This document shows, piece after piece, positions 1-29,044 of a stretch of 30,935 bases of DNA. Where the stretch lies: the IMG/VR virus record IMGVR_UViG_2690316316_000011, positions 1-30,935 of that record; one strand, given 5' to 3'. The notes under the pieces were generated by a model. The model did no database searches. It saw nothing but the letters and a program-made list of their open reading frames with translations, and was not told the origin of the DNA. Position 1 is the first letter of the stretch; the number at the start of each line of letters is the position of its first letter. This DNA is from a virus. Its lineage: Duplodnaviria; Heunggongvirae; Uroviricota; Caudoviricetes. The position numbers and the translations under genes are program-made.

Positions 1-456
1 ATGAACAAGAAAGGAATATTTTTAATCATAGCGTTACTTATTTTTATTTTACTACTATTGCTTATATTCGCTAAGCTAAATTTTAATGTAAATACTGCCC
101 TCGCTATATTATCATTAATTTTAACAGTGCTATCAGGTACGGACTTAGTCAAAAAGTACACTACGGTCAAATCGACAAATAAAAGCCCTATAGATATGTG
201 GATGGTTTTTGGTATTGCTATCTCCGCTGTTTCTATGTATGGATTATATATAGACCCCCAATTATCCCCTTTAGAAGGTTTAACTATTTGTATAGTATCA
301 CTTATACTTTTTGTTACTGTTTTAGTTTCGGCTTTATTAAATTACAAAAAAATAAAGAAACCAGATGTTAGGGAAATAATGAAACAAAGTCATTCGGTTT
401 TTAGAGAAAACGAAGAAACCATTACTATTACAACAACCATAAAAAAAGCCCCGTAA
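1..456 (+). CDS. small integral membrane protein, unknown function
   Basis: Complete 151-aa ORF with about four hydrophobic helices (e.g. IFLIIALLIFILLLLLIF, WMVFGIAISAVSMYGLYI, LTICIVSLILFVTVLVSALL); stop codon lies in the loop of a terminator hairpin; very AT-rich with no AGTACT copies. Confidence 0.5.
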   Translation: MNKKGIFLIIALLIFILLLLLIFAKLNFNVNTALAILSLILTVLSGTDLVKKYTTVKSTNKSPIDMWMVFGIAISAVSMYGLYIDPQLSPLEGLTICIVSLILFVTVLVSALLNYKKIKKPDVREIMKQSHSVFRENEETITITTTIKKAP

Positions 457-481: not shown

Positions 482-1276
482 TCATAGAATAGGAGAGTAA
501 ATTTCCACTTCAGGATAATAAGCTCTAAGGTAATTTATAAAACCTTCATAAGCATTAAGAAGAGATATTTTATGTGAAATCAAATCTTGTTCTATTATCA
601 GTGCTTTATCGGAAGGTAGCTCATCATAATTGAAATGACAAAGAAGATTATGATTCGCACCACCAAACACCTGAATGTTTCTATTATCGGAAATCGGCAA
701 ATGTCCACATATGATATAATCAATATTTTTATACGAATCAATGAAGCTTTGGAAATGACCGTGGAGTAACTTATCATTTAACGGATAGCCCGCTGGAAAA
801 TCCCTTAAAATACTATCAAACTGATCTCCAAAAATAAGAAGATCGGTGTGAAAAGAATTAGGTAAAGTTTCAACCAATGAACGTACCCTCGCAAACGGTG
901 TAAAGTGGAAGTAAGCGTTTAAAAAGTCCACATCTGACTGTCTTTTTTTATCTGAAAATAATGTATTATCGGTTGCACTCTGTATATAAGCCTCATGTTC
1001 CCTTTTGATTTGATGCAATTTTTCCACTGTATAAGTGAATGGATCTCTATCAACAAGAATATGATCATTTGCACAAAGCAGGATAAGATTTTCATAAGAA
1101 TTGTCATTTGCTAACAGGTCATCGCCCCTTGGTCCTTTTGGGCTTTTGGCTATTACATGAGCCATTTGTCCGATGTGAACCTGCTCTTTAAAAAGAGAAG
1201 TTCGGCAAATATTACATTGCCCAGCGGATAGGCCATACAATTTTTTTATTGCTGCTGTAGTAATTGCATCACTCAT
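482..1276 (-). CDS. HNH-type nuclease domain protein
   Basis: 264-aa ORF; N-terminal zinc-finger HNH signature C-x2-C ... H ... N ... C-x2-H (CNICRTSL...HVIAKSPKGPRG...NLILLCANDH); C-terminal ~150 aa not recognised. Confidence 0.55.
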   Translation of the reverse strand: MSDAITTAAIKKLYGLSAGQCNICRTSLFKEQVHIGQMAHVIAKSPKGPRGDDLLANDNSYENLILLCANDHILVDRDPFTYTVEKLHQIKREHEAYIQSATDNTLFSDKKRQSDVDFLNAYFHFTPFARVRSLVETLPNSFHTDLLIFGDQFDSILRDFPAGYPLNDKLLHGHFQSFIDSYKNIDYIICGHLPISDNRNIQVFGGANHNLLCHFNYDELPSDKALIIEQDLISHKISLLNAYEGFINYLRAYYPEVEIYSPIL

Positions 1277-1942: not shown

Positions 1943-2512
1943 TTATCCCTTTTTTATAACAAACGATCCCTGTATACCTGCAAGAACAAGTCTTGCCCCC
2001 TTCTCTGCTTCTGCATAGAAATCATAAATGATTTTACGTTTCTTACTTTCACGCAATCCAATTACTCGCTTTTCTTTCTTCTTCTGGCTGGTATCAATCA
2101 ATCGCTCTTTACCATTCTTCCCTTTAATGACCTTATAACGCCCATTTGATAGATTACGTTTCAACCCTGCAATGTTACCGAACCGATCAAGACGTGCTTT
2201 ACTCGTTGGTACAAACTTATCAATGGCCTTTTCCTGAATAAGTACGTCATATAAGTACTTCGCTTGTAGATCCTTCACGAGAATTGTACTGCGAACATCA
2301 TTACCAACTTTCTTGTACATAAAGAGAATGGAACGCTGAGTGAAAGGTACTGCTCCTTTATCGACGGCATTGTTTAAGTCCATTTGCATTTTGGCTGATA
2401 ACGCCCTTGACCTTTTGATTATTTCATTCTGAAAGTAACGTCCGAGACGTTGACCCGTTGTATTAAGATAGGTTGTAGCGTTATTCAGTCCTGTTATTCT
2501 GCCTCTGATCAT
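1943..2512 (-). CDS. hypothetical basic protein
   Basis: 189-aa ORF, Lys/Arg-rich C-terminus (KGKNGKERLIDTSQKKKEKRVIGLRESKKRK); tightly packed with flanking genes. Confidence 0.35.
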   Translation of the reverse strand: MIRGRITGLNNATTYLNTTGQRLGRYFQNEIIKRSRALSAKMQMDLNNAVDKGAVPFTQRSILFMYKKVGNDVRSTILVKDLQAKYLYDVLIQEKAIDKFVPTSKARLDRFGNIAGLKRNLSNGRYKVIKGKNGKERLIDTSQKKKEKRVIGLRESKKRKIIYDFYAEAEKGARLVLAGIQGSFVIKKG

Positions 2513-2514
2513 AT

Positions 2515-2967
2515 TTACCTCACTCCCAACATTTCAATCAAACTCTGTAGCACCCGGAATAATTCGATTCGATTCTTTGGTAATCGGGATTTGCACAAAA
2601 TGGCTTTATTAAGATTATCAGGATGTAAACCGTAATAGCTAATCAATGCAGTTTCAATTAAAGTAGCTTCGGCATCTGTCTTAAAACAGTACAGAATCCT
2701 TTTTGAGTACTCCATACCTGAATCAATCATGGCATTTACACTTTTACTGCTGCCCGTATAGTCCATCCAGTTACTTTCAGTTGATGTACTCTCAAGGTTT
2801 GAAATGTCTTTGATACCTTTATATATCTGCTTCTTCCCGAAGTAGTACTCTCCCGTTTCGGGAAATTCAATTAAGTACACAAATGAACAGTACAGACCTT
2901 CATTTACTTCCTTGACATCCCATTGTTCTGGATCGAACATCGCCCAGTTGTTATTAATTCTCATCAC
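2515..2967 (-). CDS. GIY-YIG-like endonuclease (putative homing endonuclease)
   Basis: 150-aa ORF; N-terminal 'VYLIEFPETGEYYFGKK' has GIY-(10-11 aa)-YIG spacing, followed by a conserved-looking Arg and an E..LI segment (AEATLIETALI). Confidence 0.45.
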   Translation of the reverse strand: MMRINNNWAMFDPEQWDVKEVNEGLYCSFVYLIEFPETGEYYFGKKQIYKGIKDISNLESTSTESNWMDYTGSSKSVNAMIDSGMEYSKRILYCFKTDAEATLIETALISYYGLHPDNLNKAILCKSRLPKNRIELFRVLQSLIEMLGVR

Positions 2968-3004
2968 TAAATACCCATATGTAATTTATATAGGTATTTA
3001 GTGA

Positions 3005-3448
3005 ATGGATTTAAAAAGCAGACTTAAGGAATATGAAGGTACGATTGCCTATCAGAAAAAATTGAGGTACTTCCGTAATGGAAAATTCTTCCCATACTCT
3101 GATTCATTGGGATTCAGTACTGTCGGATATGGTCATTTAATCAAACCGGGAGAAAATTTCAGTACTGGATTATCCCCGAATGAGGCAGAGACTTTACTTG
3201 ATAAAGATATTGCAGTTGCCCGGACAGGATTAAGCACATTACGTTTAGGTACTCTTCCTGCCGACATTGAGGACTATCTGATCATCATGATTTTTCAGTT
3301 AGGGGTGAATGGCGTAAGTAAATTCAGAAAACTACTGGCAGCGGCAAAGGCGGGAGATCGTGATGGTATGCGGCGTGAGTCCGTTGATTCATTATGGTAC
3401 AGACAAACGCCAAACCGGGTAAGAGATATGAATAATAAATTGAAATAA
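3005..3448 (+). CDS. endolysin, T4 lysozyme-like muramidase (GH24)
   Basis: 147-aa ORF; N-terminal catalytic Glu region (EYEGTIAYQ...VGYGH) and C-terminal 'SLWYRQTPNRVRDM' closely parallel T4 lysozyme 'SRWYNQTPNRAKRV'. Confidence 0.85.
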   Translation: MDLKSRLKEYEGTIAYQKKLRYFRNGKFFPYSDSLGFSTVGYGHLIKPGENFSTGLSPNEAETLLDKDIAVARTGLSTLRLGTLPADIEDYLIIMIFQLGVNGVSKFRKLLAAAKAGDRDGMRRESVDSLWYRQTPNRVRDMNNKLK

Positions 3449-3731: not shown

Positions 3732-3768
3732 ACATTATGCCTTATTATTGTTATTATGAGTATTTATA

Positions 3769-4424: not shown

Positions 4425-8312
<3,888 letters not shown>

Positions 8313-8328
<16 letters not shown>

Positions 8329-8936
8329 GTTTGATCCTGATTCACCTGTCCTAATAAACTAAAGTATTCATCCCCTTTATAGAGAGATTGATATACTGAA
8401 TTGGCGGCAATCAATGGCGGCTGTCTGTCCAGCTTCTTATAAATGCTGTTCACATAAACTGTCATTTCATTCGTTTTTTCATTTGGATCGGCTACTGCCT
8501 GAATGTAATCAATAAATCCTGAGAACATCAGCATTGAGTACAATACAGTACTGTCATAGGGATTCAGAATAACGAGTGTAATATTCATCTGTGCATCTTT
8601 AAGGAATCCCCCTAAAGCAAGTGCTCTTACACTCGTGTTCACATTACTAATTTTGAAGTTAATCGCATCGTTATTGATCCCCTTCTGTTCGCTGAAAGAA
8701 GGCAATGAACCACTAATGATATCGGGAAAACTAATGTACTGGTTGCCATTCAGATCAATATCAATAAGTGAATCAGTCCAGTGAAAACCATTTGTACCTT
8801 TCGGGAGTACATCAAAACAGGTAACATGAACACCTAAACTCATTACATCCATGACACTAAGGCGTGGTTTAGTCGTGCCCCGAACTAACTTCCAGTACTT
8901 TAATAATGTTGCGTTAGTTAAAATACTCTCGTCCAT
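8313..8936 (-). CDS. minor tail protein (gpL position)
   Basis: 207-aa ORF, synteny only; overlaps downstream gene by 16 nt. Confidence 0.4.
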
Positions 8937-9493
8937 CAGATGATATTCTCCGTTGCTTTTAATGTAATATTCATTATGTTACCTACGGGCATTGTATAAT
9001 CATTATCGGGATCTAATATTGCTTCAATCTGAATGTTGTTATAGATAATAGCCTCATTTGCCTGCACGGTATTTTGCAGTACAGGAAATACGGTTAATGA
9101 GGTACTGGTACGATCAATAATTCTGTATATCTTTTTATGATTCGTGAATTGTATTAACTCACCAACTGTTATTGAATTATTATTAGTAGTTATTACCCTT
9201 GTACCCTTTGAAGCGATTGACTGACTTGTTAATGCCCCGCTCTGTGCTCCCCTGTAAGCACCCATCAATCCGAGCGATAATGTGAAGGATTTACCCTGCG
9301 AATACTGAGCCAGAAAGTTTTGAACCTCCCCAATACTGGAAGGATTGAAACTTAACTGAAACTGAATCTCATAGTATTGAATACCCGTACTTCTCATGAT
9401 ACGTTGGCCTGTCCATGTTTGATTTGAGTAAACAGGTTCAGTACTTTTAATCTGGAAGTTTGTTATTTTTATTTGATTTGAAAAGGATGCCAT
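8936..9493 (-). CDS. minor tail protein (gpM / distal tail position)
   Basis: 185-aa ORF, first minor tail gene after the tape measure; synteny-based call. Confidence 0.4.
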   Translation of the reverse strand: MASFSNQIKITNFQIKSTEPVYSNQTWTGQRIMRSTGIQYYEIQFQLSFNPSSIGEVQNFLAQYSQGKSFTLSLGLMGAYRGAQSGALTSQSIASKGTRVITTNNNSITVGELIQFTNHKKIYRIIDRTSTSLTVFPVLQNTVQANEAIIYNNIQIEAILDPDNDYTMPVGNIMNITLKATENII

Positions 9494-9494
9494 A

Positions 9495-10067
9495 GTGATA
9501 CCTCGAATATCTTCTTTCTTTATTTATTTGAAAACCTCTTTTCTTAATTTTTTTAGGAGGCTTGATTGGCAGGCCGCATCGGTTATAGTTGCTATGATTT
9601 TGTTTGGAGCACAAATAGGCTATAACACATATGATAAATGGAAGGAAAGTTCAGATAATGTTTTTAAAATGCGTGTAATATTATTAAGCGAAATAAACAA
9701 CAACCTTATGGCTCTTGCAACTGGCGGCGATGATTCTCAGGTATTAGGTACTTACGAAATTTGTATTCCTTTACCTGCCGGAGATACAGAAGCCATTAAA
9801 AGAGTAGCAACCGCCGTTTCCTATTTGCATGATGAAGTATATTTTTCACAATTAGAAAAGTTAGCATCACTTCCTAAAAAAGAAGTAGATGCGATAGTGA
9901 AAAGTTATTATTCATTATCAAGATTGCGTACCCTTTCTACGCAACTTGACTTCAATATCAACTATTCACCGTCTAAGGTAAAATTAATGAGAGATGAATA
10001 TTACAATCTTTATAGCTTAACAAGCTCTCTATCTAACTATTTGACTCATCACACTGAAAATCCCTAA
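9495..10067 (+). CDS. opposite-strand moron ORF, hypothetical membrane protein
   Basis: 190-aa ORF antisense to the tail operon, filling a 585-bp gap between tape measure and minor tail genes; N-terminal hydrophobic helix (AASVIVAMILFGAQIGY); AT-rich, no AGTACT copies. True start may be an internal Met. Confidence 0.3.
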   Translation: MIPRISSFFIYLKTSFLNFFRRLDWQAASVIVAMILFGAQIGYNTYDKWKESSDNVFKMRVILLSEINNNLMALATGGDDSQVLGTYEICIPLPAGDTEAIKRVATAVSYLHDEVYFSQLEKLASLPKKEVDAIVKSYYSLSRLRTLSTQLDFNINYSPSKVKLMRDEYYNLYSLTSSLSNYLTHHTENP

Positions 10068-10077
10068 TTTGAATTTC

Positions 10078-12297
10078 TTAAGTATTCCGTCGCTGACTGC
10101 TTCTCACGGCCTGAGTAACGCTATTAGCGTGTTTCTTCAACATCTCATTGAATTTCTTATCATCACCCGCAACGTCTCCCTGAATGATCAAGGGGGCGTT
10201 GACGGTGATATCTCCAGCGGTACTGCCGCCTTTCTCCTGAGTATCGAGGAACTTAGTCAGCTTCTTGTTAGCTTCTGGCTGTACTACACGCTCACCGGCT
10301 TTCAGTACAAAACTTTTGTTGTCCATACCAGCGGGTAATTCATCTACACCGCCGTGGAACTGCCCACTTGCAGCCCCCTTCGCAGTACTGATAATGCTCA
10401 TACCTAACGATAGTACCTGAGCGTAGTTTGCGAGGCTTGCGGGCCACGGCGTAGCAAGAGCCTGTGCTAATGCTGATTGTATTGATAGTACTGTCTGAGC
10501 AATAGTAATGCCCTTACTCAATGCAAATGCCGCCTGTGCCGCCCCTGAAGATTCACCAAACGCTTCTACCATGCCATCACTTAAGGATTGAGCCGTATCA
10601 CTGAATATAGTCAATTGTTGGTGTGCATTCAGGTTACTGATATCGATAGCCTGAGCGTTATACTTTGCCGTAATCTCTGCCTTTCGCTTTTCATAATCTT
10701 CATGACCCTTCAGTAATAAATCATTCTGCTGAAGTTCTGCATTCATGGCATCCTGATTATCTTTCAGTAATTGATCGGTATTATCATAACTTAAGGGATT
10801 ACCACCATTGATACGCTGATTTTGCTGATCTGTTAGGAATGATTTTTGAGTACTGTTCAGTACACCAGAAGAAATTAAGCTATTTGTATCTTTCAGACCC
10901 TGATTGGGATCTTGATAACCAACCATTGAATTGATTAAATCATTACGTTGTTTAGTACCAGAAGCATTTGCGGCATCGACATATTCTTTAAGTTGCTTTG
11001 GTGATATTCCAAGTACCTGAGCACTGTCCATAATCGTCTTAAGAAGGGCTTTCTGTTGCCTGTCGAACTGCTGTAGGCGTACTTTGAAACCCTTTTCCCC
11101 GACCTGAGCAAGTGCTGTTTCAAGATTACGCTGTGCCTGTAGCCTTTTTGCATCAGCCTGCTTTTGGGCTTGTTCTGCCTGTTTCCGTAGCTGATCGGCT
11201 TTCTTCTGAGCATCCTCACGTTCTTTGGCTTCGTCTTTCCAGCCACCTTGCGGAGCCGTAACAGTAGCTATGTCATTACGAAAGTTGTTAACGAGTCCTT
11301 CAAGATTGGCCTGAGCACTGGCGTACACACTCTGCTTGCCATTATCCATACTGCCAGTTTGCAAGGCTGCACCCTGATAGTTTAAAGCCCCGGCGGTGCG
11401 TAACTTTTCCCATATGTCTAAAAAGTCCTGTAATGTTCCCTTAGACGTTTTAATCTTCTCGTTCAGATCTTCAAATAGTCCTGCTTCATGGGGCTTCTGA
11501 TTGGCGGCATCCAGTACTGCATTCATTGCCCCCACGAGTGGATTCAGACCATCAGCGATAGTACCTTTGATACGGGTAGTCAGCTTATCCAGATTCTTAT
11601 CGAACTCTGCATAGTTAGCTGCTGCCTCGTTACTCACGGCGGCGTTCTGCCCCTGTATGTACGTCATTGCATCGGCTTCAGTATTGAACTGCTGAAGAGT
11701 ACTGATCATGTGGCTTGAATCACTCGCCAGTGTTTCCATGACGTTGACGATTTCGGCCTGTGACTTACCTGCATCCCGCATGGCATAAAACGTGTGGATC
11801 ACGGCCTGCATACCGCCATCTGCTTGTTTAAGGTACTTGTTATATTGCTGTAGGTTCAGCCCGTACTCTTTCAGGTCATCCGATACACCACCACCAGCAC
11901 GGAACGCATCACCAAGTTTATCGAGCGTATCCTTGTTGAAATCCCCAAACTTATCCATTTCAAGCCCAAGACCGCTAAACGCCGCCGATAGCTGCTGGAG
12001 CTGCATGACGGACAATCCAGTACTACGACTGATTTCATTCATTTCACGCACATATTCGCGGCTTGAATTGACCAGTGCAGTAAGGCCACCAATACCAATT
12101 GCAGCAGCCCCCGCTAAACCTGTCATTGCCGTACCGAAACCACCAGCAAGCCCACTAAAACTGCCAGTGAGATCTTCAATCACACCGCCAGCATTTGAAC
12201 CGAATTCTTCAAGTGATGAGGTGCCTTGTCGCAAGGCACGCTGTAAACCTGACGTATCCCCGTCAATATCAAAACGAATTCTATTATTATTTGCCAT
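10078..12297 (-). CDS. tail tape measure protein
   Basis: 739-aa ORF immediately downstream of G/GT chaperones; N-terminal Gly/Ala-rich segment (GLAGGFGTAMTGLAGAAAIGIGG), long Q/A/K-rich helical stretches. Confidence 0.8.
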   Translation of the reverse strand: MANNNRIRFDIDGDTSGLQRALRQGTSSLEEFGSNAGGVIEDLTGSFSGLAGGFGTAMTGLAGAAAIGIGGLTALVNSSREYVREMNEISRSTGLSVMQLQQLSAAFSGLGLEMDKFGDFNKDTLDKLGDAFRAGGGVSDDLKEYGLNLQQYNKYLKQADGGMQAVIHTFYAMRDAGKSQAEIVNVMETLASDSSHMISTLQQFNTEADAMTYIQGQNAAVSNEAAANYAEFDKNLDKLTTRIKGTIADGLNPLVGAMNAVLDAANQKPHEAGLFEDLNEKIKTSKGTLQDFLDIWEKLRTAGALNYQGAALQTGSMDNGKQSVYASAQANLEGLVNNFRNDIATVTAPQGGWKDEAKEREDAQKKADQLRKQAEQAQKQADAKRLQAQRNLETALAQVGEKGFKVRLQQFDRQQKALLKTIMDSAQVLGISPKQLKEYVDAANASGTKQRNDLINSMVGYQDPNQGLKDTNSLISSGVLNSTQKSFLTDQQNQRINGGNPLSYDNTDQLLKDNQDAMNAELQQNDLLLKGHEDYEKRKAEITAKYNAQAIDISNLNAHQQLTIFSDTAQSLSDGMVEAFGESSGAAQAAFALSKGITIAQTVLSIQSALAQALATPWPASLANYAQVLSLGMSIISTAKGAASGQFHGGVDELPAGMDNKSFVLKAGERVVQPEANKKLTKFLDTQEKGGSTAGDITVNAPLIIQGDVAGDDKKFNEMLKKHANSVTQAVRSSQRRNT

Positions 12298-12378: not shown

Positions 12379-12974
12379 CTACACTTCTGCTTTTTCTTGT
12401 GTAGTGAGATCGCTATTAAGAACATCCAGAAAATCAAAATCAGCAACTTTGATACTACGCCGTGCCTCTGGCGTGAGATTCCCATTACTTATCGTGGTGT
12501 AATAGCACTGATAAGCATGTTTCAACATCTCAATTTGCGTACCTGTCGGTTCTATATAGGCATCGTAAACCATAAGCATATCGAGTACTTCAGGATCTAA
12601 ATTAAAGTACTCATCTGGTGATAAACCACGTTTATTGACCATTTTACAGAAGTACCGCAGATGGCTATCACTTCTTACTTTTTTTCGACTTCATCCACTG
12701 GATTACTGTCACTGACAAGTTGAATAATTGCCTGATAAATTTTACCCTGCATAACATAATCTATACTGTTGACATTAATACGCCCATCAATATCTTCATC
12801 AGAGAAAATAGGATCACCATTTTCATCTTTAACACAAAGAATAAGAGTATTTGCTACATCAGTACAGTTTGCAAAATCGCGACCATTTGGACGGTGGATG
12901 TAGAGCGTGAAGCCTTCGATCTCAAATGGTTTTAGCTCTGGTTGTAATTTCTTTTTTAGTTCTATTAAATTCAT
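12379..12974 (-). CDS. tail assembly chaperone frameshift fusion (gpGT-like), made by -1 ribosomal frameshift
   Basis: The -1 frame is open from the slippery site (...KK-VRSDSHLRYFCK-MVNKRGLSPDEYF...) into the 87-aa ORF 12379-12642; the frame relation (codon phase +1 in coordinates) matches a -1 shift. Confidence 0.65.
12675..12974 (-). CDS. tail assembly chaperone (gpG-like)
   Basis: 99-aa acidic ORF between major tail candidate and tape measure; ends ...VDEVEKK* with a slippery heptamer immediately before the stop. Confidence 0.7.
   Translation of the reverse strand: MNLIELKKKLQPELKPFEIEGFTLYIHRPNGRDFANCTDVANTLILCVKDENGDPIFSDEDIDGRINVNSIDYVMQGKIYQAIIQLVSDSNPVDEVEKK
12678..12684 (-). promoter_or_regulatory. 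programmed -1 frameshift slippery heptamer A AAA AAG
   Basis: Minus-strand mRNA reads GTC GAA AAA AAG TAA; A_AAA_AAG in the zero frame directly before the G stop codon. Confidence 0.7.
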
Positions 12975-12992
12975 CTGTTATCTCCATATACG

Positions 12993-13021
12993 AAAAAGGG
13001 AAAGTTAATAACCTTCCCTTT
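12993..13021 (-). terminator. intrinsic terminator-like hairpin downstream of major tail gene
   Basis: On the minus transcript AAAGGGAAGG-uuauuaa-CUUUCCCUUU followed by UU; pairs perfectly only on the minus strand (one G-U), A-C mismatch on plus. Lies between the 167-aa gene stop and the G gene start. Confidence 0.45.
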
Positions 13022-13031
13022 ATTTATTAAA

Positions 13032-13535
13032 TTATGGAGTTTCAGTAATCAGTCCTGAATCAATAGCTGCACCATCTACAGCAAGCGTGAAGGTCTTAGT
13101 TACGACTTCATCCTTGTCACCACCAATAGTCGTACTCGACACGAAACAGGTGTAGATAACGTAGAATCCTGTTGTTTTAGTGGCATCTTCAAAATAGCTG
13201 AGTTTGATCTGACAACGTTTTTGATCATCGGCAAGCTGTTCTAACTTTTGGTGTACTTCATTATCTGGCAAGTAATTAACTGCAAGACTAATATCAGGAA
13301 TTGATTTAGTACCTAATAATTTCCGGTCATACGCGTTATTAAATGTTTTTACAGTAATTACGGTACTCTCAAAGCCTGAAGTTGTGAAGGTATTCACTTC
13401 GGGGATTACTTCAAAATCCGTTGTAATAGTACTGCCAGCACTTGTACCTACTTCGACCTGTAGGTTAGCACCAGCAAAAATATCCATAGCCATATTTATA
13501 TCCTTATAAGAATTGAATTGACGGGATAAATCCAT
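13032..13535 (-). CDS. major tail (tube) protein candidate
   Basis: 167-aa ORF immediately upstream of G/GT, the lambda gpV position; paralogous to the N-terminal ~150 aa of the 911-aa fibre (shared NYLPD..HQ.L and GDKD.VVTKT motifs). Likely true start at internal MAMDIF. Confidence 0.5.
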   Translation of the reverse strand: MDLSRQFNSYKDINMAMDIFAGANLQVEVGTSAGSTITTDFEVIPEVNTFTTSGFESTVITVKTFNNAYDRKLLGTKSIPDISLAVNYLPDNEVHQKLEQLADDQKRCQIKLSYFEDATKTTGFYVIYTCFVSSTTIGGDKDEVVTKTFTLAVDGAAIDSGLITETP

Positions 13536-13550
13536 TTATCCCTTTTGTAT

Positions 13551-16286
13551 TTATTTATTATCGAGTAGTGATTGTACAAGTACTTTCAATGTTTCAATTT
13601 CGGCTGCAAGTTCATCATTCTTTATTTTTAGTGCCTTGATAGCAGCAAGACCATCTAACATCATGGGTGTTTCATCGAGATGATAGAGATCACCGACTTC
13701 TTTAACGTATTGTGGATCAATATTCATAATCTGCTGTGAAACCACACCACGTCTTGGTGTTTCATCCTCATCAGATTTAAAAGTGAAGTTCACAAAATCC
13801 ATTTGCGATATATTATTGAGTGCAATATTAAGATCTAATTTTTCACCAATATTCTTTGCTCTTTCATCGGAAACTGAAGAAGTTGTTATTTGTGCCCACG
13901 CTCCCCATGCGGCAACATTCGTTTGTATCCGAGAATAGATACGATTCGACGTATCATAAAAACGTTGTTGATACCATTGATTGGTTGTTCCCATTGCTGA
14001 AGTGCCGCCGACATTTAAACCCTGAGTTGCCTGTGTAAATAATGAGCCATAGATATTTCCGCTTAATGGACCATTTGACCACGTACCGCCGACAGCTTGC
14101 CACCCCTGATTAACAACATTCATATCAGTACCAGTAGCTGCTTGTGATGAGCCAGTAGGTGCAAGTCCTCCAGCAAGGCCAATGGGTGTGCCATAGCCCG
14201 AAATTGGCGGTAGATACGCCCAGCCCTGCCCAGCGACTGACCCAATCCTATCTCTGAAATAGAAAATAACCCCCTTACCGGCTTCCTGGCTATTCTCAAT
14301 TCTTACCCGGCGACCTACCACATCATCACCACCAGTAACATCTAAGTTGATTGCGGGCCAATCATCCCGCGATACCGTTAGTTGATTGCTGATCACTTGA
14401 GGTTGATTGAACGTATTTGATCTGTCCAATGTCGGTACTTCATGCCATTGCCATTTACCACTGTTCTGTGATGGCTGCACACCTCCAGCAAAGACACGAT
14501 TACCATCAGGCTGAACAAGCATTCCAGAATAAGACGGTGAACCATCATACTGTGATACATAACCAGCACCGCCGAATGATGAAGGGGAATCAATAGTTGC
14601 TGTAGTCGTTCGAATGAACCCTTTCGGTGCATCCTTCATATCGGCTACATGGCGAGGATTGATTCCAAGGCCAACTTCTGAAAGCGTATTGTCGATTGAA
14701 TAAATTTGCTGACCATTTAATGTCACAGAACTACCTACGGTAATAGATCCACTGAAGGTCTGCCCAGCACTCCATGTATTGGCAGTGGAAAGCAATGGTA
14801 CAGTACTTCCAGATGTACCAATGTTTGTTGTCGCTGCCGTGCCAAGTCCTAAAGCAGTACGTGCTGCCGCTGCCGTCGTAGCCCCTGTACCGCCACTCGT
14901 TAAGGGTAATGGCGTAGAGAGGGATAACGACGATAAAGCTGCCGTACCGCCAGTGATAGCGGCTGCGTTAGCATTCTGCGTTGCGAGGCTACCTAACCCA
15001 AGATTAGTACGTGCTGTTTCTGTATTCGCAATGTCCGATAGATTCGATGCGATTTTTAGCTGTGCGTCATTAGTAATAGAACCAAGACCAATATCATCTT
15101 TCGAAAGTACTATATCGGCAGAGAGCTCATGACCATTTATCACAATCGTTTTTGGTACAAAATCAGTATTAACATGAGTAGTTAGTAAATTAATTGAAGC
15201 ATTAACACCATCGATCGTGCTATCGACTTCACCCTTTGAGTAAACATCCAGATTGTTACGGGCTTCTTCAATATCAGTCAGATCAGAAAGGTTATGACTG
15301 ATCGCCAATTGTGCATCGTCAGTAACGGAACCAAGACCAACATCATCTTTCGAAAGTACTACATCATCGCTGAGTACATGCCCGTTAATCGTTCTGGTAT
15401 CCGGTACACTGCCTGTGTCTGAACTCGTTAGTACCACATCATCAGAAAGTACATGGCCATTAACGGTACGTTCTACAGGAACAGCACCAACATCGCCAGG
15501 AGTCAGAACAATGTCAGTACTCAGTTGCTTGCCGTTTACTGTTCGAGTGAGAGGAACATAGCGTGCGTCCATCTGTGTAGCGGTATAGATACGAGTCCAC
15601 GCTGTAGTGGCATTCTTCGCATAGATACTTAGCGTTCCCGATTTCGTCATAGCAAGGGAACTGACAGACGAACCATCAACCAGACCAATCCCCATCATGT
15701 CGGCACCAGCAGGATTACCCGCCTGTGTTGACGGTACTTTGATAAAGCTGTTACCCGTAGGGATAGCCGGTGCGTATTGAGGAACATCCGTTGTGTTTGA
15801 ACCTACACCATAATCTCCCTGATAGACCGGAAGTAACGCCGTAATCGCCTGACTACGGGCAACAACATCAGTTGGGGTAAATTCATAGGTTTTGGTTACT
15901 ACGCTATCCTTATCCCCGGAGAGTTGAGTACTGGTAATCGCCCCGTTCACCATTGCATAAGTTAACTGGCTGCCCTCTTCCTGATAGGCAATGGTTAGCT
16001 GGAACACATCCTGATTTTCTGCTGCTTCATCCAGAAATTGATGTGTAGAATCATCAGGGAGGTAATTAACAACAATATCAACTGGATTAGCGGATTTCTC
16101 TGCAAGTAATTTACTGTTATATGTGCTGTTGTAGGTGTCGTACTGATTCACCTCTGATTCAATCTCCAGTACTGGAAATTCTGCCACTTCATTAATCTGG
16201 ACGTTGCCAATTCCCTGTGGTGATCTGTTCCCCGTATCGGGGTTATATGATAATGAAAGTCCATTACCTGTAAAAATATCTGCCAT
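13551..16286 (-). CDS. tail fibre with N-terminal tube-like domain and C-terminal intramolecular chaperone (peptidase S74-like) domain
   Basis: 911-aa ORF; N-terminal domain paralogous to the 167-aa neighbour; central repeats (RTVNGKQLSTDIVLT / RTVNGHVLSDDVVLT / RTINGHVLSDDVVLS / KTIVINGHELSADIVLS; GLGSVTDDAQL / GLGSITNDAQL); C-terminal 106 aa begin SDERAKNIGEKLDLN, matching the auto-cleavage motif of endosialidase / T5 pb1-type chaperone domains. Confidence 0.7.
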   Translation of the reverse strand: MADIFTGNGLSLSYNPDTGNRSPQGIGNVQINEVAEFPVLEIESEVNQYDTYNSTYNSKLLAEKSANPVDIVVNYLPDDSTHQFLDEAAENQDVFQLTIAYQEEGSQLTYAMVNGAITSTQLSGDKDSVVTKTYEFTPTDVVARSQAITALLPVYQGDYGVGSNTTDVPQYAPAIPTGNSFIKVPSTQAGNPAGADMMGIGLVDGSSVSSLAMTKSGTLSIYAKNATTAWTRIYTATQMDARYVPLTRTVNGKQLSTDIVLTPGDVGAVPVERTVNGHVLSDDVVLTSSDTGSVPDTRTINGHVLSDDVVLSKDDVGLGSVTDDAQLAISHNLSDLTDIEEARNNLDVYSKGEVDSTIDGVNASINLLTTHVNTDFVPKTIVINGHELSADIVLSKDDIGLGSITNDAQLKIASNLSDIANTETARTNLGLGSLATQNANAAAITGGTAALSSLSLSTPLPLTSGGTGATTAAAARTALGLGTAATTNIGTSGSTVPLLSTANTWSAGQTFSGSITVGSSVTLNGQQIYSIDNTLSEVGLGINPRHVADMKDAPKGFIRTTTATIDSPSSFGGAGYVSQYDGSPSYSGMLVQPDGNRVFAGGVQPSQNSGKWQWHEVPTLDRSNTFNQPQVISNQLTVSRDDWPAINLDVTGGDDVVGRRVRIENSQEAGKGVIFYFRDRIGSVAGQGWAYLPPISGYGTPIGLAGGLAPTGSSQAATGTDMNVVNQGWQAVGGTWSNGPLSGNIYGSLFTQATQGLNVGGTSAMGTTNQWYQQRFYDTSNRIYSRIQTNVAAWGAWAQITTSSVSDERAKNIGEKLDLNIALNNISQMDFVNFTFKSDEDETPRRGVVSQQIMNIDPQYVKEVGDLYHLDETPMMLDGLAAIKALKIKNDELAAEIETLKVLVQSLLDNK

Positions 16287-17029: not shown

Positions 17030-20806
<3,777 letters not shown>

Positions 20807-20818
20807 TTAATATCCTTA

Positions 20819-23257
<2,439 letters not shown>

Positions 23258-23465: not shown

Positions 23466-24587
23466 TTGGTAAAAAATGTCTACTTCGACGAATCAGGGTT
23501 TACAGGTAATAACTTACTTTCAAAAGACCAGCCTTTTTTTAGTTATGCAGCAGTCATAACTGATGAAGAAGAAAGTAAACAATGTGTAGATTACATAATA
23601 CAAAAGTACTCGATTGCAGCCGGAGAGCTAAAAGGTAGCACTCTCGTTAATAGCAAGAGACTTCAACCAGCCGTAGATGAGATACTTAATCATTTCCGTG
23701 GTCGTATGCGTGTGGTTGTTAACGAAAAGAAATATGCCCTTTCAGGGAAATTCTTTGAATATATTTTCGAGCCAGTATTAGCTGCTAAAAGCTCAATATT
23801 TTACAACCTTAAATTTCACCTATTCATCTCTAATATAATGTATTTTTCTTTAATAGCTAAGGATGAGTATTCTGAACTATTGCATTCTCGATTTGAAGAT
23901 TTTTCACGAGGTAAAATATTGGTTAATAGTTTTATCGAACCAGTTATTGGTACTAAAAACTCTGAAATTATGATGGACATTCATGATTTCGCCAAACATA
24001 ACATTTCAATAATTGAAGAGGAATATGAAGGTCTTGAGGGAACTGGGTTTGATAAGTGGTTGTTAGATTTGACAACTACTTCTCTTTATAATCTCTTATG
24101 CGATATGAGTAGTAGGTTTGGTACATTGAGGGCTATATGTGACAGTTCAAAACCATTAATCACCCATCAGGAATCATTCAATGAGATGATAGGTAATGAT
24201 GAAATTGTGTTCGAGACCTACAATAATAAAAAAGTCCCGATCACATTCAAACTCTCTGAGCCGATAATCCTTTCTGATTCTAAAGTCACGCATGGTATTC
24301 AAATTGCTGATGTGATAGCTGCGGCCAGCATTTATGTGCTTAATAAGAAAAAATCCAAAGAAAGATATCACGCAAAATGGCTAACTCATTTCGAAGATGA
24401 GATTTTTTATTGGCAATGTTGTGTTGTTCCCACACCAGAAAACCTTGACCCTAAAAATGTCAACAGCTATTTGAATAGATATATATTGCAAGAAATTGCT
24501 GAACGAAGCAGAAAATCAATACCTGTTTTAGATGATATTGAAAAGGATATCATACGAATTTCCAGAACATTAGCAATGGTGCGTTGA
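23466..24587 (+). CDS. DUF3800-like protein (putative RNase H-like fold), unknown function
   Basis: 373-aa ORF beginning with a TTG codon 10 nt after an AAGGA Shine-Dalgarno; N-terminal VYFDESGFTG and C-terminal HGIQIADVIAAASIY match my recollection of the DUF3800 signature; divergent from the structural operon; AT-rich with one AGTACT copy. Confidence 0.5.
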   Translation: MVKNVYFDESGFTGNNLLSKDQPFFSYAAVITDEEESKQCVDYIIQKYSIAAGELKGSTLVNSKRLQPAVDEILNHFRGRMRVVVNEKKYALSGKFFEYIFEPVLAAKSSIFYNLKFHLFISNIMYFSLIAKDEYSELLHSRFEDFSRGKILVNSFIEPVIGTKNSEIMMDIHDFAKHNISIIEEEYEGLEGTGFDKWLLDLTTTSLYNLLCDMSSRFGTLRAICDSSKPLITHQESFNEMIGNDEIVFETYNNKKVPITFKLSEPIILSDSKVTHGIQIADVIAAASIYVLNKKKSKERYHAKWLTHFEDEIFYWQCCVVPTPENLDPKNVNSYLNRYILQEIAERSRKSIPVLDDIEKDIIRISRTLAMVR

Positions 24588-26096: not shown

Positions 26097-26783
26097 TTGA
26101 TTATGGACGAGAATAAAAAAGAAGTTATTGAAATAAGATCAGAAGATAAGGACTTTTTTGCAGAATTTATTGATTGTGAAGGTCCAATTATCCAAGATTC
26201 AATTGATCATAAAAAAATCACCCTTGCACTTGATAAAGCCCATGACATAAGAAAGTTTGAAATAGATCTCTATTGGAAGCGTGCTACTTATTTCTTTGCT
26301 TTTTTTACGGTTGTTACTGCTGCATTCGGTTTTACATTCTCAAATTACCGCTATACCTCTCTATCCCCCGCAATTGCTATTATCGGGATGACTTTTTCAC
26401 AGTGTTTTTATCATGTTAATATTGGCAGTAAGTACTGGCAGGAAAACTGGGAGTTCATTATTGATAAAATTGAATATTATGTGACTGGCAATCTTTACAA
26501 AGTTAGTTTCTTTGAAGATCATAATACATTAAGACCATCAGTGTCTAAAATTAACATTTATCTTAGCTGCTTTATCAAATGGGTTTGGATTTGTTCTCTA
26601 TTCCTATCTATTTTTAGCATACTCTTTCCGCATCCTATTTACTCATTGGTCTATTCATTAGTTGCATTCAAGCTGTATAAGCATACAGAACAGCACTGCA
26701 AAAAAACATTCAGTGATGAGTTAACTAATGATAAAAAAATCATTAGACGATTCCATTTCCGAAATCCAACATACAAAAAATAG
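26097..26783 (+). CDS. polytopic membrane protein, unknown function
   Basis: 228-aa ORF; soluble N-terminal ~60 aa then two pairs of hydrophobic helices (YFFAFFTVVTAAFGFTF / AIAIIGMTFSQCFY; IYLSCFIKWVWICSLFLSIFSILF / IYSLVYSLVAF) and a basic C-terminus; AT-rich, one AGTACT copy. Confidence 0.4.
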   Translation: MIMDENKKEVIEIRSEDKDFFAEFIDCEGPIIQDSIDHKKITLALDKAHDIRKFEIDLYWKRATYFFAFFTVVTAAFGFTFSNYRYTSLSPAIAIIGMTFSQCFYHVNIGSKYWQENWEFIIDKIEYYVTGNLYKVSFFEDHNTLRPSVSKINIYLSCFIKWVWICSLFLSIFSILFPHPIYSLVYSLVAFKLYKHTEQHCKKTFSDELTNDKKIIRRFHFRNPTYKK

Positions 26784-28330: not shown

Positions 28331-29044
28331 ATGAAATTTAAAAAATATAACAATGCTTTGATTTGCACTGTTCTTGTACTCTTATGGGCAGCAATCTTGG
28401 CACTGGTTAAAGTTTTATTTTCTGGGAATAAAGATTTTGAATGGGGTAGTGTCTCTGATTGGGCATCCACATTTTGCAATGCTATAATGGCTGGAGCTGC
28501 ATTATATGCAGCTATTAATGCAAAAAATTGGTTATCAGAGAAAACACGAACATTAGGTTTGGAAAAAGCCGAATCTATACTTAATGAAATCGATACTTTT
28601 TCTTCCGCCCATAGTTCTTATATAGATCGTTTAGCTGAAGCTGAAATCTACTATCGGTCTAATATTTTTGAAAATCAAGTAGACAGGAATATAGTAATAA
28701 ATTCACTTGATGAATTACGAGTGTTAATTGAAAACAACAAACTGAGATTGCAGGATACGCATTCAAAATTTTCATCATTAAAACGTTGGGATGTCACAAT
28801 TTTAAAGGAAGAGGAAATTTATCAGCTACTTGATGTTTATCAAAGAACAATTATGTCTTTATCGAATGCGACTTTTAATCTAAGAAATGCATTATCGGAA
28901 TTCATTAATGATGAAAGGTTTTTTGCACTCTTTGGCCATCATTTCAAAGAATATTATGCAGAGGCTCTTTCGTCCTATCATCAGGGGACATGTATCCATG
29001 ATAAAATTAGGAAATATAAATTCCGAGAACTTTTTGATGTATAG
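28331..29044 (+). CDS. N-terminally membrane-anchored helical protein, unknown function
   Basis: 237-aa ORF; two N-terminal hydrophobic helices (ALICTVLVLLWAAILALVKVLF; FCNAIMAGAALYAAINA) then a charged helical domain; AT-rich with no AGTACT copies. Confidence 0.4.
   Translation: MKFKKYNNALICTVLVLLWAAILALVKVLFSGNKDFEWGSVSDWASTFCNAIMAGAALYAAINAKNWLSEKTRTLGLEKAESILNEIDTFSSAHSSYIDRLAEAEIYYRSNIFENQVDRNIVINSLDELRVLIENNKLRLQDTHSKFSSLKRWDVTILKEEEIYQLLDVYQRTIMSLSNATFNLRNALSEFINDERFFALFGHHFKEYYAEALSSYHQGTCIHDKIRKYKFRELFDV

What the first reader, a model, noticed from the sequence alone, without database searches (positions are those of the whole stretch)
9495..10067. Antisense gene inserted inside the tail operon
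The only plus-strand ORF within the 20-kb structural operon fills the gap between tape measure and the first minor tail gene. Its start codon abuts the divergent start of the 8936-9493 gene (9493/9495), and its stop lies 10 nt from the tape measure stop. It encodes a protein with an N-terminal hydrophobic helix and is AT-rich and AGTACT-free. It is either a moron expressed against late transcription or a minus-strand gene that has decayed here.
Basis: seen in the sequence. Interest (0 to 1): 0.5.

Follow-up and report, generated by a model that had tools for sequence, protein, structure and literature searches.

The report
Backwards accessory gene between tail genes
A real, conserved gene for a 190-residue membrane-anchored protein sits backwards between the tape-measure and distal-tail genes of an enterobacterial prophage, in a slot where related phages carry nothing or other backwards-facing cargo; it is probably a lysogen-expressed envelope protein that excludes other phages, but its function is untested.

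Summary
The ORF at 9495-10067 (+) is exactly as described and is a genuine protein-coding gene. Relatives at 31-97% identity occupy the same place and strand in prophages of E. coli, Enterobacter, Kosakonia, Buttiauxella and Pectobacterium. dN/dS is 0.10-0.21, and the start position is kept as ATG/GTG/TTG with an AAAGGA ribosome site.

The "decayed minus-strand gene" reading is rejected. The "moron" reading is supported and sharpened. Of 80 related viral contigs, about 59 have only a 31-139 nt gap between tape measure and distal tail protein, usually a terminator hairpin plus an ATAAATA motif. The other 19 carry one of three unrelated cargo genes, all antisense: this family, DUF6216 membrane proteins, or DUF726 hydrolase-like proteins.

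The gene's first 11 codons overlap the tail gene's ribosome site and ATAAATA motif. Its own ribosome site and a promoter-like element lie inside the tail gene, and that element is found only in cargo-bearing loci. A Citrobacter prophage relic keeps this gene intact beside broken tail genes.

The protein is predicted as one membrane helix plus a four-helix bundle, with no known family apart from PHROG 3829 (unknown function). The best guess is prophage-expressed superinfection exclusion, analogous to HK97 gp15. The gene and its hotspot are well supported; the function is not.

The parts
9495..10067 (+). Coding sequence of the 190-aa cargo protein (GTG start, TAA stop). It consists of an N-terminal amphipathic helix, one membrane helix and a four-helix bundle.
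   Evidence: The ORF is listed. Homologs at 31-97% identity are. dN/dS is 0.10-0.21. The start position is kept as ATG/GTG/TTG in relatives. The AF2 model has pLDDT 82.8.
9561..9629 (+). Codons 23-45, the single hydrophobic (membrane-anchor) segment LDWQAASVIVAMILFGAQIGYNT.
   Evidence: Kyte-Doolittle scan. Residues L23-M34 are invariant among the six close homologs. This also shows that the annotated 157-aa variants starting at M34 are truncated.
9711..9776 (+). Codons 73-94, the most conserved motif of the family (ALATGGDDSxVLGTxEICIPLP). It forms the loop between bundle helices and contains the only Cys.
   Evidence: Alignments A1 and A2. The AF2 model has a loop at residues 76-96.
9482..9487 (+). 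Shine-Dalgarno AAAGGA for the cargo gene, 7 nt before the GTG. It is the complement of distal-tail-protein codons 3-4 (TCC TTT).
   Evidence: It is conserved in all homologous loci. Codon 3 is TCC in 7 of 7 cargo-family loci and in none of about 60 other loci.
9377..9405 (+). Candidate promoter for the cargo gene: TTGAAT, then 17 nt with TG at -15/-14, then TACGTT. It is embedded in distal-tail-protein codons 30-39.
   Evidence: The element was located. It is present in 10 of 19 cargo-bearing loci (7 of 7 of this family) and 0 of 59 empty loci. Synonymous divergence of DTP codons 1-40 is reduced. Nucleotide conservation peaks at 9333-9512. The consensus match is weak and it is not proven to be a promoter.
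9501..9504 (-). Shine-Dalgarno (GAGG) of the distal tail protein gene, lying inside codons 3-4 of the cargo gene.
   Evidence: Sequence. The equivalent in relatives is GGAG (ATGCAATCTCCG).
9520..9527 (-). ATAAATAA motif 27 nt upstream of the distal tail protein start, a likely promoter element of the distal tail unit. It lies inside cargo codons 9-11 (F-I-Y).
   Evidence: ATAAAT occurs within 70 nt upstream of the DTP start in 71 of 80 related loci, mostly at -27 to -37 and at -43 to -53 in the DUF726 loci. It sits at exactly -34 in all 7 loci of this family. TATTTAT is invariant in the plus-strand alignment.
8936..9493 (-). Distal tail protein gene (T5 pb9-like), the divergent neighbour.
   Evidence: Pfam DTP-pb9_B-dom and PHROG 1302.
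10078..12297 (-). Tape measure protein gene, the convergent neighbour.
   Evidence: PHROG 13674, E = 2.8e-88.

Best explanation
The ORF is an accessory (moron-type) cargo gene. It sits in a recombination and insertion hotspot at the boundary between the tape-measure transcription unit and the distal-tail transcription unit of a temperate enterobacterial siphophage with a T5-like tail tip.

It encodes a single-pass inner-membrane protein. A short basic N-terminus, probably cytoplasmic, is followed by one membrane helix that continues into a roughly 145-residue four-helix bundle. By the charge balance around the helix, the bundle is probably periplasmic.

I infer that it is transcribed from its own weak promoter, embedded in the first 120 nt of the distal tail protein gene, while the prophage is repressed. 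Each of the two head-to-head genes carries the other's ribosome-binding site in its first codons, and the cargo transcript is antisense to the start of the tail gene. Cargo expression and distal-tail expression should therefore be mutually antagonistic: cargo on in the lysogen, off in lytic growth.

The most likely activity is superinfection exclusion at the envelope, that is, interference with the membrane step of genome injection by incoming long-tailed phages, as for HK97 gp15 or P22 SieA.

What is shown: a real gene, purifying selection, hotspot cargo, and overlapping signals. What is inferred: expression in the lysogen, membrane topology, and the exclusion activity.

My probabilities are: real accessory cargo gene about 0.95; own promoter with antisense coupling about 0.6; injection-blocking exclusion specifically about 0.35-0.4.
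For: **Coding**
- dN/dS is 0.10-0.21 with saturated dS, and the other five frames are closed.
- The start is kept as ATG/GTG/TTG with a conserved AAAGGA site.

**Fixed place and strand**
- The gene holds the same place and strand in prophages whose copy is 97, 85, 62, 44 and 32% identical.

**Accessory status**
- About 59 of 80 related contigs have no gene at the junction. Nineteen carry one of three unrelated antisense cargo genes, and one has an IS1 insertion.
- Phage DCP80 has tape measure and distal tail protein adjacent.

**Mosaicism**
- The cargo's identity is uncoupled from its flanks. In L009, tape measure is 85% identical, DTP 80% and the cargo 44%. In L015 the figures are 83%, 70% and 85%.
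- Nucleotide conservation peaks at both cassette borders.

**Value to the host**
- A Citrobacter cronae relic keeps the gene intact at 81% identity. The flanking DTP and tape-measure fragments there are frameshifted or truncated.

**Signals**
- DTP codon 3 is TCC, which creates the cargo's ribosome site, only where this cargo is present.
- The promoter-like element occurs in 10 of 19 cargo-bearing loci and 0 of 59 empty loci.
- Synonymous change in DTP codons 1-40 is reduced.

**Protein**
- There is one hydrophobic helix, with an N-flank net charge of +1 to +3 and a C-flank of -1 to +2.
- The AF2 model (pLDDT 82.8) shows that helix continuing into a helical bundle.

**Precedents**
- HK97 gp15 is a moron next to the tape measure gene and an inner-membrane exclusion protein (PMC3594210).
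- An antisense gene nested in a phage operon couples immunity to the life cycle in S. aureus phage 80alpha (PMC11087260).
Against: - No transcript or protein data were available, and no functional homolog exists. Pfam, NCBIfam, PADLOC and PDB sequence searches gave nothing. The fold matches are generic four-helix bundles, and there is nothing in BFVD.
- The promoter candidate matches the consensus poorly (4/6 and 3/6 plus TG). The standard scan found no promoter in 9300-9494, and no terminator is conserved.
- The association of the promoter-like element and the TCC codon with cargo could reflect shared descent or co-transfer of the border segment.
- Hydrophobicity of the helix is borderline in this copy (1.52).
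- The most distant relative (P0012) has the opposite charge bias.
- The cargo's allele type does not co-vary with tape measure or distal tail protein. There is therefore no sign that it is matched to its own phage's injection machinery.
- A Pantoea homolog lies in a non-phage context next to a Sel1-repeat gene.
Confidence: 0.45

Rival explanations
1. It is a lysogen-expressed cargo gene, but not an injection blocker. It could be an envelope-located abortive-infection or defence sensor, or a host-fitness factor such as one for stress or envelope remodelling. Its helical bundle would bind a host or phage ligand.
Confidence: 0.3
2. It acts in the phage's own lytic cycle. It could be an early or middle gene like T5 llp, protecting infected cells and progeny. 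It could also be a membrane factor needed for the phage's own injection or tail maturation.
For: The position between tail genes is stable down to 32% identity. T5 llp is likewise encoded on the opposite strand beside a tail gene (my own knowledge, not checked here).
Against: About 59 of 80 relatives with the same tail module lack any gene here, and others carry unrelated cargo, so it cannot be essential for tail function. It is retained intact in a relic that cannot make virions. It has no lipoprotein signal: the only Cys is residue 90.
Confidence: 0.1
3. The transcript is what matters rather than the protein: an antisense RNA or transcriptional-interference element that keeps distal tail genes silent in the lysogen.
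For: The head-to-head overlap of both ribosome sites and of the ATAAATA motif means any plus-strand transcript is antisense to the tail gene's initiation region. All three cargo families are antisense.
Against: Strong purifying selection on the protein over its whole length and a conserved fold show the protein is used. Most relatives manage without any insert. There is no Rfam match. Antisense regulation may be an added effect, not the sole function.
Confidence: 0.04
4. It is a chance ORF, or the remnant of a decayed minus-strand gene in a long spacer.
For: None beyond the AT-richness and the lack of annotation. All database copies are named 'hypothetical protein'.
Against: dN/dS is 0.10-0.21. 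The minus frames have 14-16 stops each. There are full-length homologs at 31-97% identity. No relative has a minus-strand gene here.
Confidence: 0.01

Closest known systems
HK97 gp15 moron (superinfection exclusion protein; YebO-like)
   Same: It is an extra gene inside the tail gene cluster, directly next to the tape measure gene of a temperate enterobacterial siphophage. It has an N-terminal membrane helix followed by a helical tail. It is present in some relatives and absent from others (PMC3594210; HK97 record).
   Different: gp15 is 62 aa, lies upstream of the tape measure gene on the same strand, and has an annotated terminator. This protein is 190 aa, lies downstream and is antisense. 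There is no sequence relationship (hhalign probability about 1%). Exclusion activity is shown for gp15 and is only inferred here.
P22 SieA
   Same: It is a prophage-expressed inner-membrane protein of similar size (162-164 aa). It exists as several types less than 30% identical at one locus (PMC10883804), much like the 31-97% allele spread seen here.
   Different: SieA has three predicted membrane helices, lies in a different genome region of a podophage, and targets ejection proteins. No sequence similarity was detected here.
Noncontiguous (antisense) operons in S. aureus prophages, ith/tha of 80alpha
   Same: [quoted passage not shown]
   Different: There the antisense gene is the inhibitor (Ith) inside the lysogeny operon. 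Here the antisense gene is the presumed immunity or cargo gene at a late-gene boundary. Reciprocal regulation here is inferred from anatomy only.
T5 Llp and T1/phi80/N15 Cor receptor-blocking lipoproteins
   Same: They are small envelope proteins encoded within or beside tail genes that prevent superinfection. (Cor is mentioned in PMC3594210; the llp strand and location are from my own knowledge.)
   Different: Those are outer-membrane lipoproteins with a signal peptide and lipobox. This protein has no Cys before residue 90 and a long basic N-terminus typical of a signal anchor.
PHROG 3829 (phage protein family, function unknown)
   Same: It is the only library family that matches: 10 of 12 family members match, with best E = 3.9e-10, and the window protein matches at E = 1.2e-4 over residues 20-142.
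   Different: The match is weak and partial, and the family carries no functional annotation. No member could be found in the GenBank phage set by tblastn.
Accessory or defence hotspots of temperate phages (P2/P4-type hotspots)
   Same: A fixed junction between conserved genes is empty in most relatives and filled with alternative, unrelated cargo in others. The concept is from Rousset et al. 2022, listed as reference 12 in PMC10884400, which I did not read.
   Different: The slot is inside the tail gene cluster. The cargos are single genes, always antisense, and none matches a known defence system in PADLOC.

Membership tests
Moron (Hendrix/Juhala sense) | An extra gene present in one phage and absent at the same junction in close relatives. 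| tested here: met
   About 59 of 80 contigs with a 45-97% identical distal tail protein have only a 31-139 nt gap. Seven carry this family and 12 carry other cargo. DCP80 has the two tail genes 27 nt apart.
Moron (Hendrix/Juhala sense) | Its own promoter and terminator flanking the gene. | tested here: inconclusive
   A weak promoter-like element at 9377-9405 is found only in cargo-bearing loci (10 of 19 against 0 of 59), but it scores 7/12 plus TG. The standard scan found nothing in 9300-9494. The 10118-10130 hairpin is not conserved as a hairpin. Only L008 has a convincing terminator.
Moron (Hendrix/Juhala sense) | Nucleotide composition different from the neighbouring genes. | tested here: met
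   GC is 33.9% against 39.7%, the fourth lowest of 38 genes. AGTACT is depleted in homologs, with 1 site against 9.3 expected over five lineages. The effect is modest.
Moron (Hendrix/Juhala sense) | Expressed from the repressed prophage. | not testable with these tools
   No transcriptome could be consulted. Retention in a decayed Citrobacter prophage is indirect support.
HK97 gp15 / YebO family | Sequence homology to gp15. | tested here: not met
   hhalign of family alignment A3 against gp15 gives probability about 1%.
Superinfection exclusion proteins (functional class) | Blocks infection or DNA entry of superinfecting phage when expressed. | not testable with these tools
   This needs plating and DNA-entry assays.
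Superinfection exclusion proteins (functional class) | Cell-envelope location. | tested here: inconclusive
   There is one hydrophobic helix (KD 1.5-2.3) with a more basic N-flank in 10 of 11 full-length members. AF2 models a long helix running into a bundle. This is prediction only.
Known Sie, Imm or defence families in Pfam, NCBIfam and PADLOC | A profile match above threshold. | tested here: not met
   There is no Pfam family above noise, none in NCBIfam, and none in PADLOC for the window protein or relatives.
Llp/Cor-type lipoproteins | Signal peptide with a lipobox Cys. | tested here: not met
   The only Cys is at position 90, and there is no L-x-x-C near the hydrophobic segment.
PHROG 3829 | An HMM match. 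| tested here: met
   E = 1.2e-4 for the window protein. Ten of 12 members match, with best E = 3.9e-10. The family has no known function.
Noncontiguous (antisense) operon | A gene on the opposite strand between co-oriented genes, whose transcript overlaps theirs. | tested here: inconclusive
   The anatomy fits: there is 1 nt between the divergent starts, and the ribosome sites are mutually embedded. Overlapping transcripts were not observed. In empty relatives the junction carries a terminator-like hairpin in 44 of 55 loci, so the flanking genes may be two units rather than one operon.

The most novel reading that the evidence does not exclude
The tape-measure/distal-tail junction of this prophage lineage is a dedicated antisense expression slot. 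A promoter and ribosome site written into the first 40 codons of the distal tail protein gene drive whichever cargo is installed. The head-to-head overlap makes cargo expression and distal-tail expression mutually exclusive, giving a built-in lysogeny/lysis switch. The 190-aa protein would then found a new family of inner-membrane proteins that block genome injection. The DUF6216 and DUF726 cargos would be two further undescribed exclusion or defence genes.
Probability: 0.25. Interest if true: 0.65.

Novelty: new member of a known kind. Interest (0 to 1): 0.4.

Why it matters
Accessory genes carried inside prophage tail clusters are a proven source of phage-resistance functions, such as HK97 gp15. 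Most such genes remain "hypothetical".

This analysis turns an odd ORF into a defined, testable object. It delimits a hotspot with three alternative single-gene cargos, all antisense. It also identifies the likely control elements and provides natural empty-site controls.

If the exclusion function holds, it would add a new protein family to the small set of injection-blocking proteins. It would also give a clean example of how gene orientation ties a prophage's immunity gene to its life cycle. If it does not hold, the locus is still an ordinary, well-behaved moron.

Tried and rejected
**Searches that found nothing useful**
- The locus has no DNA match (blastn) and the protein no tblastn match in the GenBank phage set. 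There is also no megablast match in complete E. coli genomes. The lineage is known only from draft genomes, metagenomes and IMG/VR.
- Pfam, NCBIfam, PADLOC and PDB sequence searches gave no family.
- An exhaustive HMMER search of 1.84 billion representatives found only 8 relatives. A profile search added one more.
- The genome-contig scan found only two species-representative genomes.
- Rfam gave nothing.
- A literature search for DUF6216 found nothing relevant.

**Structure**
- The first AF2 run, with 6 close sequences, was poor (pLDDT 49.7). The second, with 12 diverse sequences, gave 82.8.

**Ideas rejected**
- Start at ATG 9594 (M34), as in some 157-aa annotations. Residues 19-33 are invariant and under selection, and the upstream start codon is conserved.
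- The 10118-10130 hairpin as a terminator. The stem is broken in L002 and L015, and its conservation follows tape-measure coding.
- The TTGATT-16-TATAGT hit at 9562-9589 as the promoter. It lies inside the conserved coding region downstream of the start.
- Co-variation of the cargo type with tape measure or distal tail protein. None was seen.
- Twin-arginine or Sec-cleavable signal. The RR is not conserved and there is no AxA site.
- Homology to HK97 gp15.

Full report
**Observation.** The window carries a long run of minus-strand phage structural genes.
- Terminase large subunit, 20819-22726.
- Protease-capsid fusion, 17030-18826.
- Tail tube, 13032-13535.
- Tail assembly chaperone, 12675-12974.
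- Tape measure, 10078-12297.
- A T5 pb9-like distal tail protein (DTP), 8936-9493.
- Further tail-tip genes, 4724-8936.

The ORF at 9495-10067 (+) starts with GTG and encodes 190 aa.
- It lies 1 nt from the divergent ATG of the DTP gene.
- Its stop lies 10 nt from the tape-measure stop.
- It is the only plus-strand ORF of 75 aa or more between 3459 and 23222 that is not nested in a larger minus-strand gene.
- Over 9494-10077 the plus frame has one stop, while the other five frames have 14-20.
- GC is 33.9% against 39.7% for the window, the fourth lowest of 38 genes.

So the description is accurate.

**It is a real gene.** Full-length homologs exist at 96, 85, 81, 63 and 60% identity. An exhaustive search adds 45, 34, 33 and 29%.
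- The exact window protein is recorded in E. coli draft genomes. Others come from Enterobacter, Buttiauxella, Kosakonia, Citrobacter, Pantoea and Pectobacterium. All are named "hypothetical".
- Pairwise dN/dS is 0.10-0.21, with synonymous sites near saturation.
- The start position is kept as ATG in three lineages, GTG here and TTG in Citrobacter. AAAGGA lies 7 nt upstream in all of them.
- Residues 19-33 are invariant among close homologs. Database annotations of 157 aa that start at M34 are therefore truncated.
- No Rfam family matches the region.

The "decayed minus-strand gene" alternative is rejected.

**Same place, same strand, in many relatives.** The homolog sits between tape measure and DTP on the opposite strand in every phage context recovered.
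- Kosakonia-type prophages L001-L004.
- L008 and L009, the latter 44% identical.
- A Pectobacterium cacticida prophage, L012, 32% identical, whose tail proteins are only 36-42% identical to the window's.
- Six IMG/VR contigs.

The cargo's identity is uncoupled from that of its flanks.

| Locus | Tape measure | DTP | Cargo |
|---|---|---|---|
| L009 | 85% | 80% | 44% |
| L015 | 83% | 70% | 85% |

A 60-nt identity profile shows sharp conservation peaks at both borders, at 9333-9512 and 10113-10172. Between them the body varies independently of the flanks. That is the signature of a mosaic cassette.

**The junction is a cargo hotspot.** I fetched 80 IMG/VR contigs encoding a DTP homolog at 45-97% identity and measured the tape-measure-stop to DTP-start interval.

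| State of the junction | Loci |
|---|---|
| Gap of 139 nt or less, no gene | 58 |
| 226-nt gap, no gene (L068) | 1 |
| This family, antisense | 7 |
| DUF6216 multi-pass membrane protein, 203-269 aa, antisense | 8 |
| DUF726 alpha/beta-hydrolase-like protein, 260-280 aa, antisense | 4 |
| IS1 insertion | 1 |
| Split tape-measure frame (L079), effectively empty | 1 |

- Escherichia phage DCP80 has a 37%-identical tape measure followed 27 nt later by a 33%-identical DTP, with nothing between them.
- The presence/absence criterion for a moron is therefore met.
- All three cargo families run against the tail genes.
- None matches a known defence system in PADLOC.

**What the empty site looks like.** In 44 of 55 empty loci the gap holds a GC-rich hairpin followed by a T-run on the tail-gene strand. 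After it comes a conserved (T)ATAAATA(C) motif.
- ATAAAT occurs within 70 nt upstream of the DTP start in 71 of 80 loci, mostly at -27 to -37 and at -43 to -53 in the DUF726 loci.
- So the "20-kb operon" is probably at least two units, and the cargo sits at their boundary.
- In the window, ATAAATA[C/A] occurs 8 times on the minus strand against once on the plus strand. Several copies lie 12-46 nt upstream of minus-strand genes.
- The motif resembles the T4 late-promoter consensus TATAAATA (my own knowledge). Whether it is a promoter here is untested.

**Overlapping signals.** In this family the cargo's 5' end has extended over the tail gene's control region.
- The DTP Shine-Dalgarno (GAGG, 9504-9501) is the complement of cargo codons 3-4.
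- The ATAAATA motif (9527-9520) is the complement of codons 9-11. This probably explains the conserved I-Y in an otherwise variable N-terminus.
- Conversely, the cargo's AAAGGA is the complement of DTP codons 3-4 (TCC TTT).
- Codon 3 is TCC in 7 of 7 loci carrying this family and in none of about 60 others, which use AGT, ACT, ACA, TCA or TCT.

A promoter-like element lies inside DTP codons 30-39. It reads TTGAAT, then 17 nt with TG at -15/-14, then TACGTT, at 9377-9405.
- It occurs in 10 of 19 cargo-bearing loci: 7 of 7 of this family, 2 of 8 DUF6216 and 1 of 4 DUF726.
- It occurs in 0 of 59 empty loci (Fisher P = 7e-8, not corrected for phylogeny).
- Synonymous divergence in DTP codons 1-40 is 0.25-0.51, against 0.60-0.75 for the rest of the gene.

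These facts fit a cargo promoter and ribosome site written into the tail gene. They could also reflect co-transfer of the border segment with the cassette.
- The consensus match is weak, and the standard scan found no promoter in 9300-9494.
- No terminator is conserved. The 10118-10130 hairpin is broken in L002 and L015, and only L008 has a good one.
- The window has no terminator-like hairpin on the tail strand within the spacer.

**Evidence that the host keeps it.** In Citrobacter cronae and related metagenome contigs, a 1.77-kb fragment corresponding to window 8677-10431 interrupts a Hydrolase_3 gene near modABC/gal.
- The DTP copy is split into two frames, at 44-63% identity.
- Only residues 618-739 of the tape measure remain, also in two frames.
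- The cargo gene is intact at 81% identity, with dN/dS 0.12 against the window.

A 34%-identical homolog in Pantoea cypripedii is chromosomal, without phage genes nearby, next to a Sel1-repeat protein.

**The protein.** It has one hydrophobic segment at residues about 23-45.
- The N-flank has a net charge of +1 to +3 and the C-flank -1 to +2. This leans towards N-in/C-out in 10 of 11 full-length members.
- There is no lipobox, since the sole Cys is residue 90. There is no conserved twin-arginine and no signal-peptidase site.
- With 12 diverse sequences, AlphaFold2 gives pLDDT 82.8 and pTM 0.67. The model has helix 5-22, a long helix 25-75 that includes the membrane segment, a loop 76-96 carrying the most conserved motif (ALATGGDDSxVLGTxEICIPLP), then four more helices.
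- BFVD gives nothing below E = 0.08.
- The only family match is PHROG 3829, of unknown function. Ten of 12 members match, with best E = 3.9e-10.

**How it most likely works.**

*Shown:*
- It is an accessory gene under purifying selection.
- It is installed antisense at a boundary between two tail units.
- Its initiation signals interlock with those of the DTP gene.

*Inferred:*
- It is transcribed from its own promoter in the lysogen.
- Its 5' leader is antisense to the DTP start, and late transcripts are antisense to it. The two states would therefore antagonise each other. This "noncontiguous operon" logic is shown experimentally for ith/tha in S. aureus phage 80alpha (PMC11087260).
- Antisense orientation would also keep a cargo terminator from truncating tail transcription. 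That may explain why all three cargos share it.

*By analogy only:* the protein acts at the inner membrane to block genome entry of incoming siphophages.
- HK97 gp15 is a moron next to the tape measure gene that inserts into the inner membrane and excludes HK97 and HK75. Escape maps to the tail tube/tape measure region (PMC3594210; PMC10883804).

Arguments against a close parallel:
- gp15 is 62 aa, on the same strand, upstream of the tape measure, and unrelated in sequence.
- The cargo type here does not co-vary with tape measure or DTP.

My probabilities are: accessory cargo gene 0.95; own promoter with antisense coupling about 0.6; injection-blocking exclusion 0.35-0.4; another envelope defence or fitness role about 0.3; a lytic-cycle role about 0.1.

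**Novelty and verdict.** Morons in tail clusters and cargo hotspots in temperate phages are established concepts, so the kind is known.
- New here are an uncharacterised protein family and a defined hotspot with three unrelated cargos that are always antisense.
- Also new is the interlocked head-to-head arrangement of control signals.
- This is a good, testable lead rather than a surprise.
- Interest is 0.4, and the novelty class is a new member of a known kind.

Noticed in passing
whole window (for example 1419, 9440, 10384 ... 30752); also L002, L008, L009, L012: The palindrome AGTACT is the most frequent hexamer in the window: 89 copies against 7.5 +/- 2.5 expected from dinucleotide shuffles, about 2.9 per kb. 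It is spread evenly over the three codon phases (30/25/25), so it is a DNA-level signal. Related prophages, including the distant Pectobacterium one, have 2.5-3.9 per kb. Bacterial flanks have about 0-0.05 per kb. The AT-rich accessory-looking genes are depleted: 1-456, 482-1276, 9495-10067, 23466-24587 (DUF3800), 26097-26783 (8xMP) and 28331-29044. Its function is unknown; it could be a binding or modification site tied to the core phage genome.
   Followed up: partly
minus strand at 23240-23247, 13547-13558, 13020-13027, 9520-9527, 3760-3767; relatives L024-L103 at about -27 to -37 before the DTP start (-43 to -53 in the DUF726 loci): An ATAAATA(C/A) motif, resembling the T4 late-promoter consensus TATAAATA, occurs 8 times on the minus strand against once on the plus strand. 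It lies 12-46 nt upstream of several structural genes. ATAAAT occurs within 70 nt upstream of the distal tail protein gene in 71 of 80 related contigs, usually just after a terminator-like hairpin. It is a candidate late promoter element that splits the structural block into several units.
   Followed up: partly
L027, L047, L048, L067, L073, L074, L076, L077 (about 2150-3070, minus strand of each locus); L036, L037, L044, L080; L060: The same tape-measure/DTP junction carries other antisense cargo in related viral contigs. These are DUF6216 multi-pass membrane proteins (8 loci) and DUF726 hydrolase-like proteins with a GHSLG motif (4 loci). One locus has an IS1 insertion. None matches PADLOC. 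They are candidate undescribed exclusion or defence genes.
   Followed up: partly
L005 9184-10921 (also L006, L007), Citrobacter cronae chromosome near modABC/gal: A 1.77-kb prophage relic is inserted in a Hydrolase_3 (HAD) gene. It holds fragments of three tail genes that are frameshifted or truncated, and an intact copy of the 190-aa gene.
   Followed up: yes
window 13032-13535 (-) and 13551-16286 (-): There are two adjacent tail-tube paralogs. One is a 167-aa tube protein. The other is a 911-aa protein whose first 134 residues or so are 36% identical to the tube protein (E = 2e-21). The rest of it is a long fibre-like extension ending in a Peptidase_S74 intramolecular chaperone domain. This suggests tube subunits that carry side fibres.
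   Followed up: partly
window 23466-24587 (+), 26097-26783 (+), 28331-29044 (+), 1-456 (+), 482-1276 (-): There are other AT-rich (30-35% GC), AGTACT-poor genes outside the structural block. They include a DUF3800 protein and an 8xMP octameric membrane protein, and are probably further accessory or lysogeny-expressed cargo.
   Followed up: no
L010 8001-9880 (Pantoea cypripedii chromosome): A 34%-identical homolog of the 190-aa protein lies outside any recognisable prophage. It is immediately upstream of a 421-aa Sel1-repeat protein on the same strand, possibly as a two-gene unit.
   Followed up: no
L021 (Escherichia phage DCP80, PQ671644.1, 16904-17464 in the record): The DTP homolog of DCP80 (186 aa, locus 7203-7763) is not annotated in the GenBank record, which shows a 584-nt unannotated gap after the tape measure gene. 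The record's taxonomy (Straboviridae, 141 kb) looks inconsistent with this siphovirus-type tail module.
   Followed up: no
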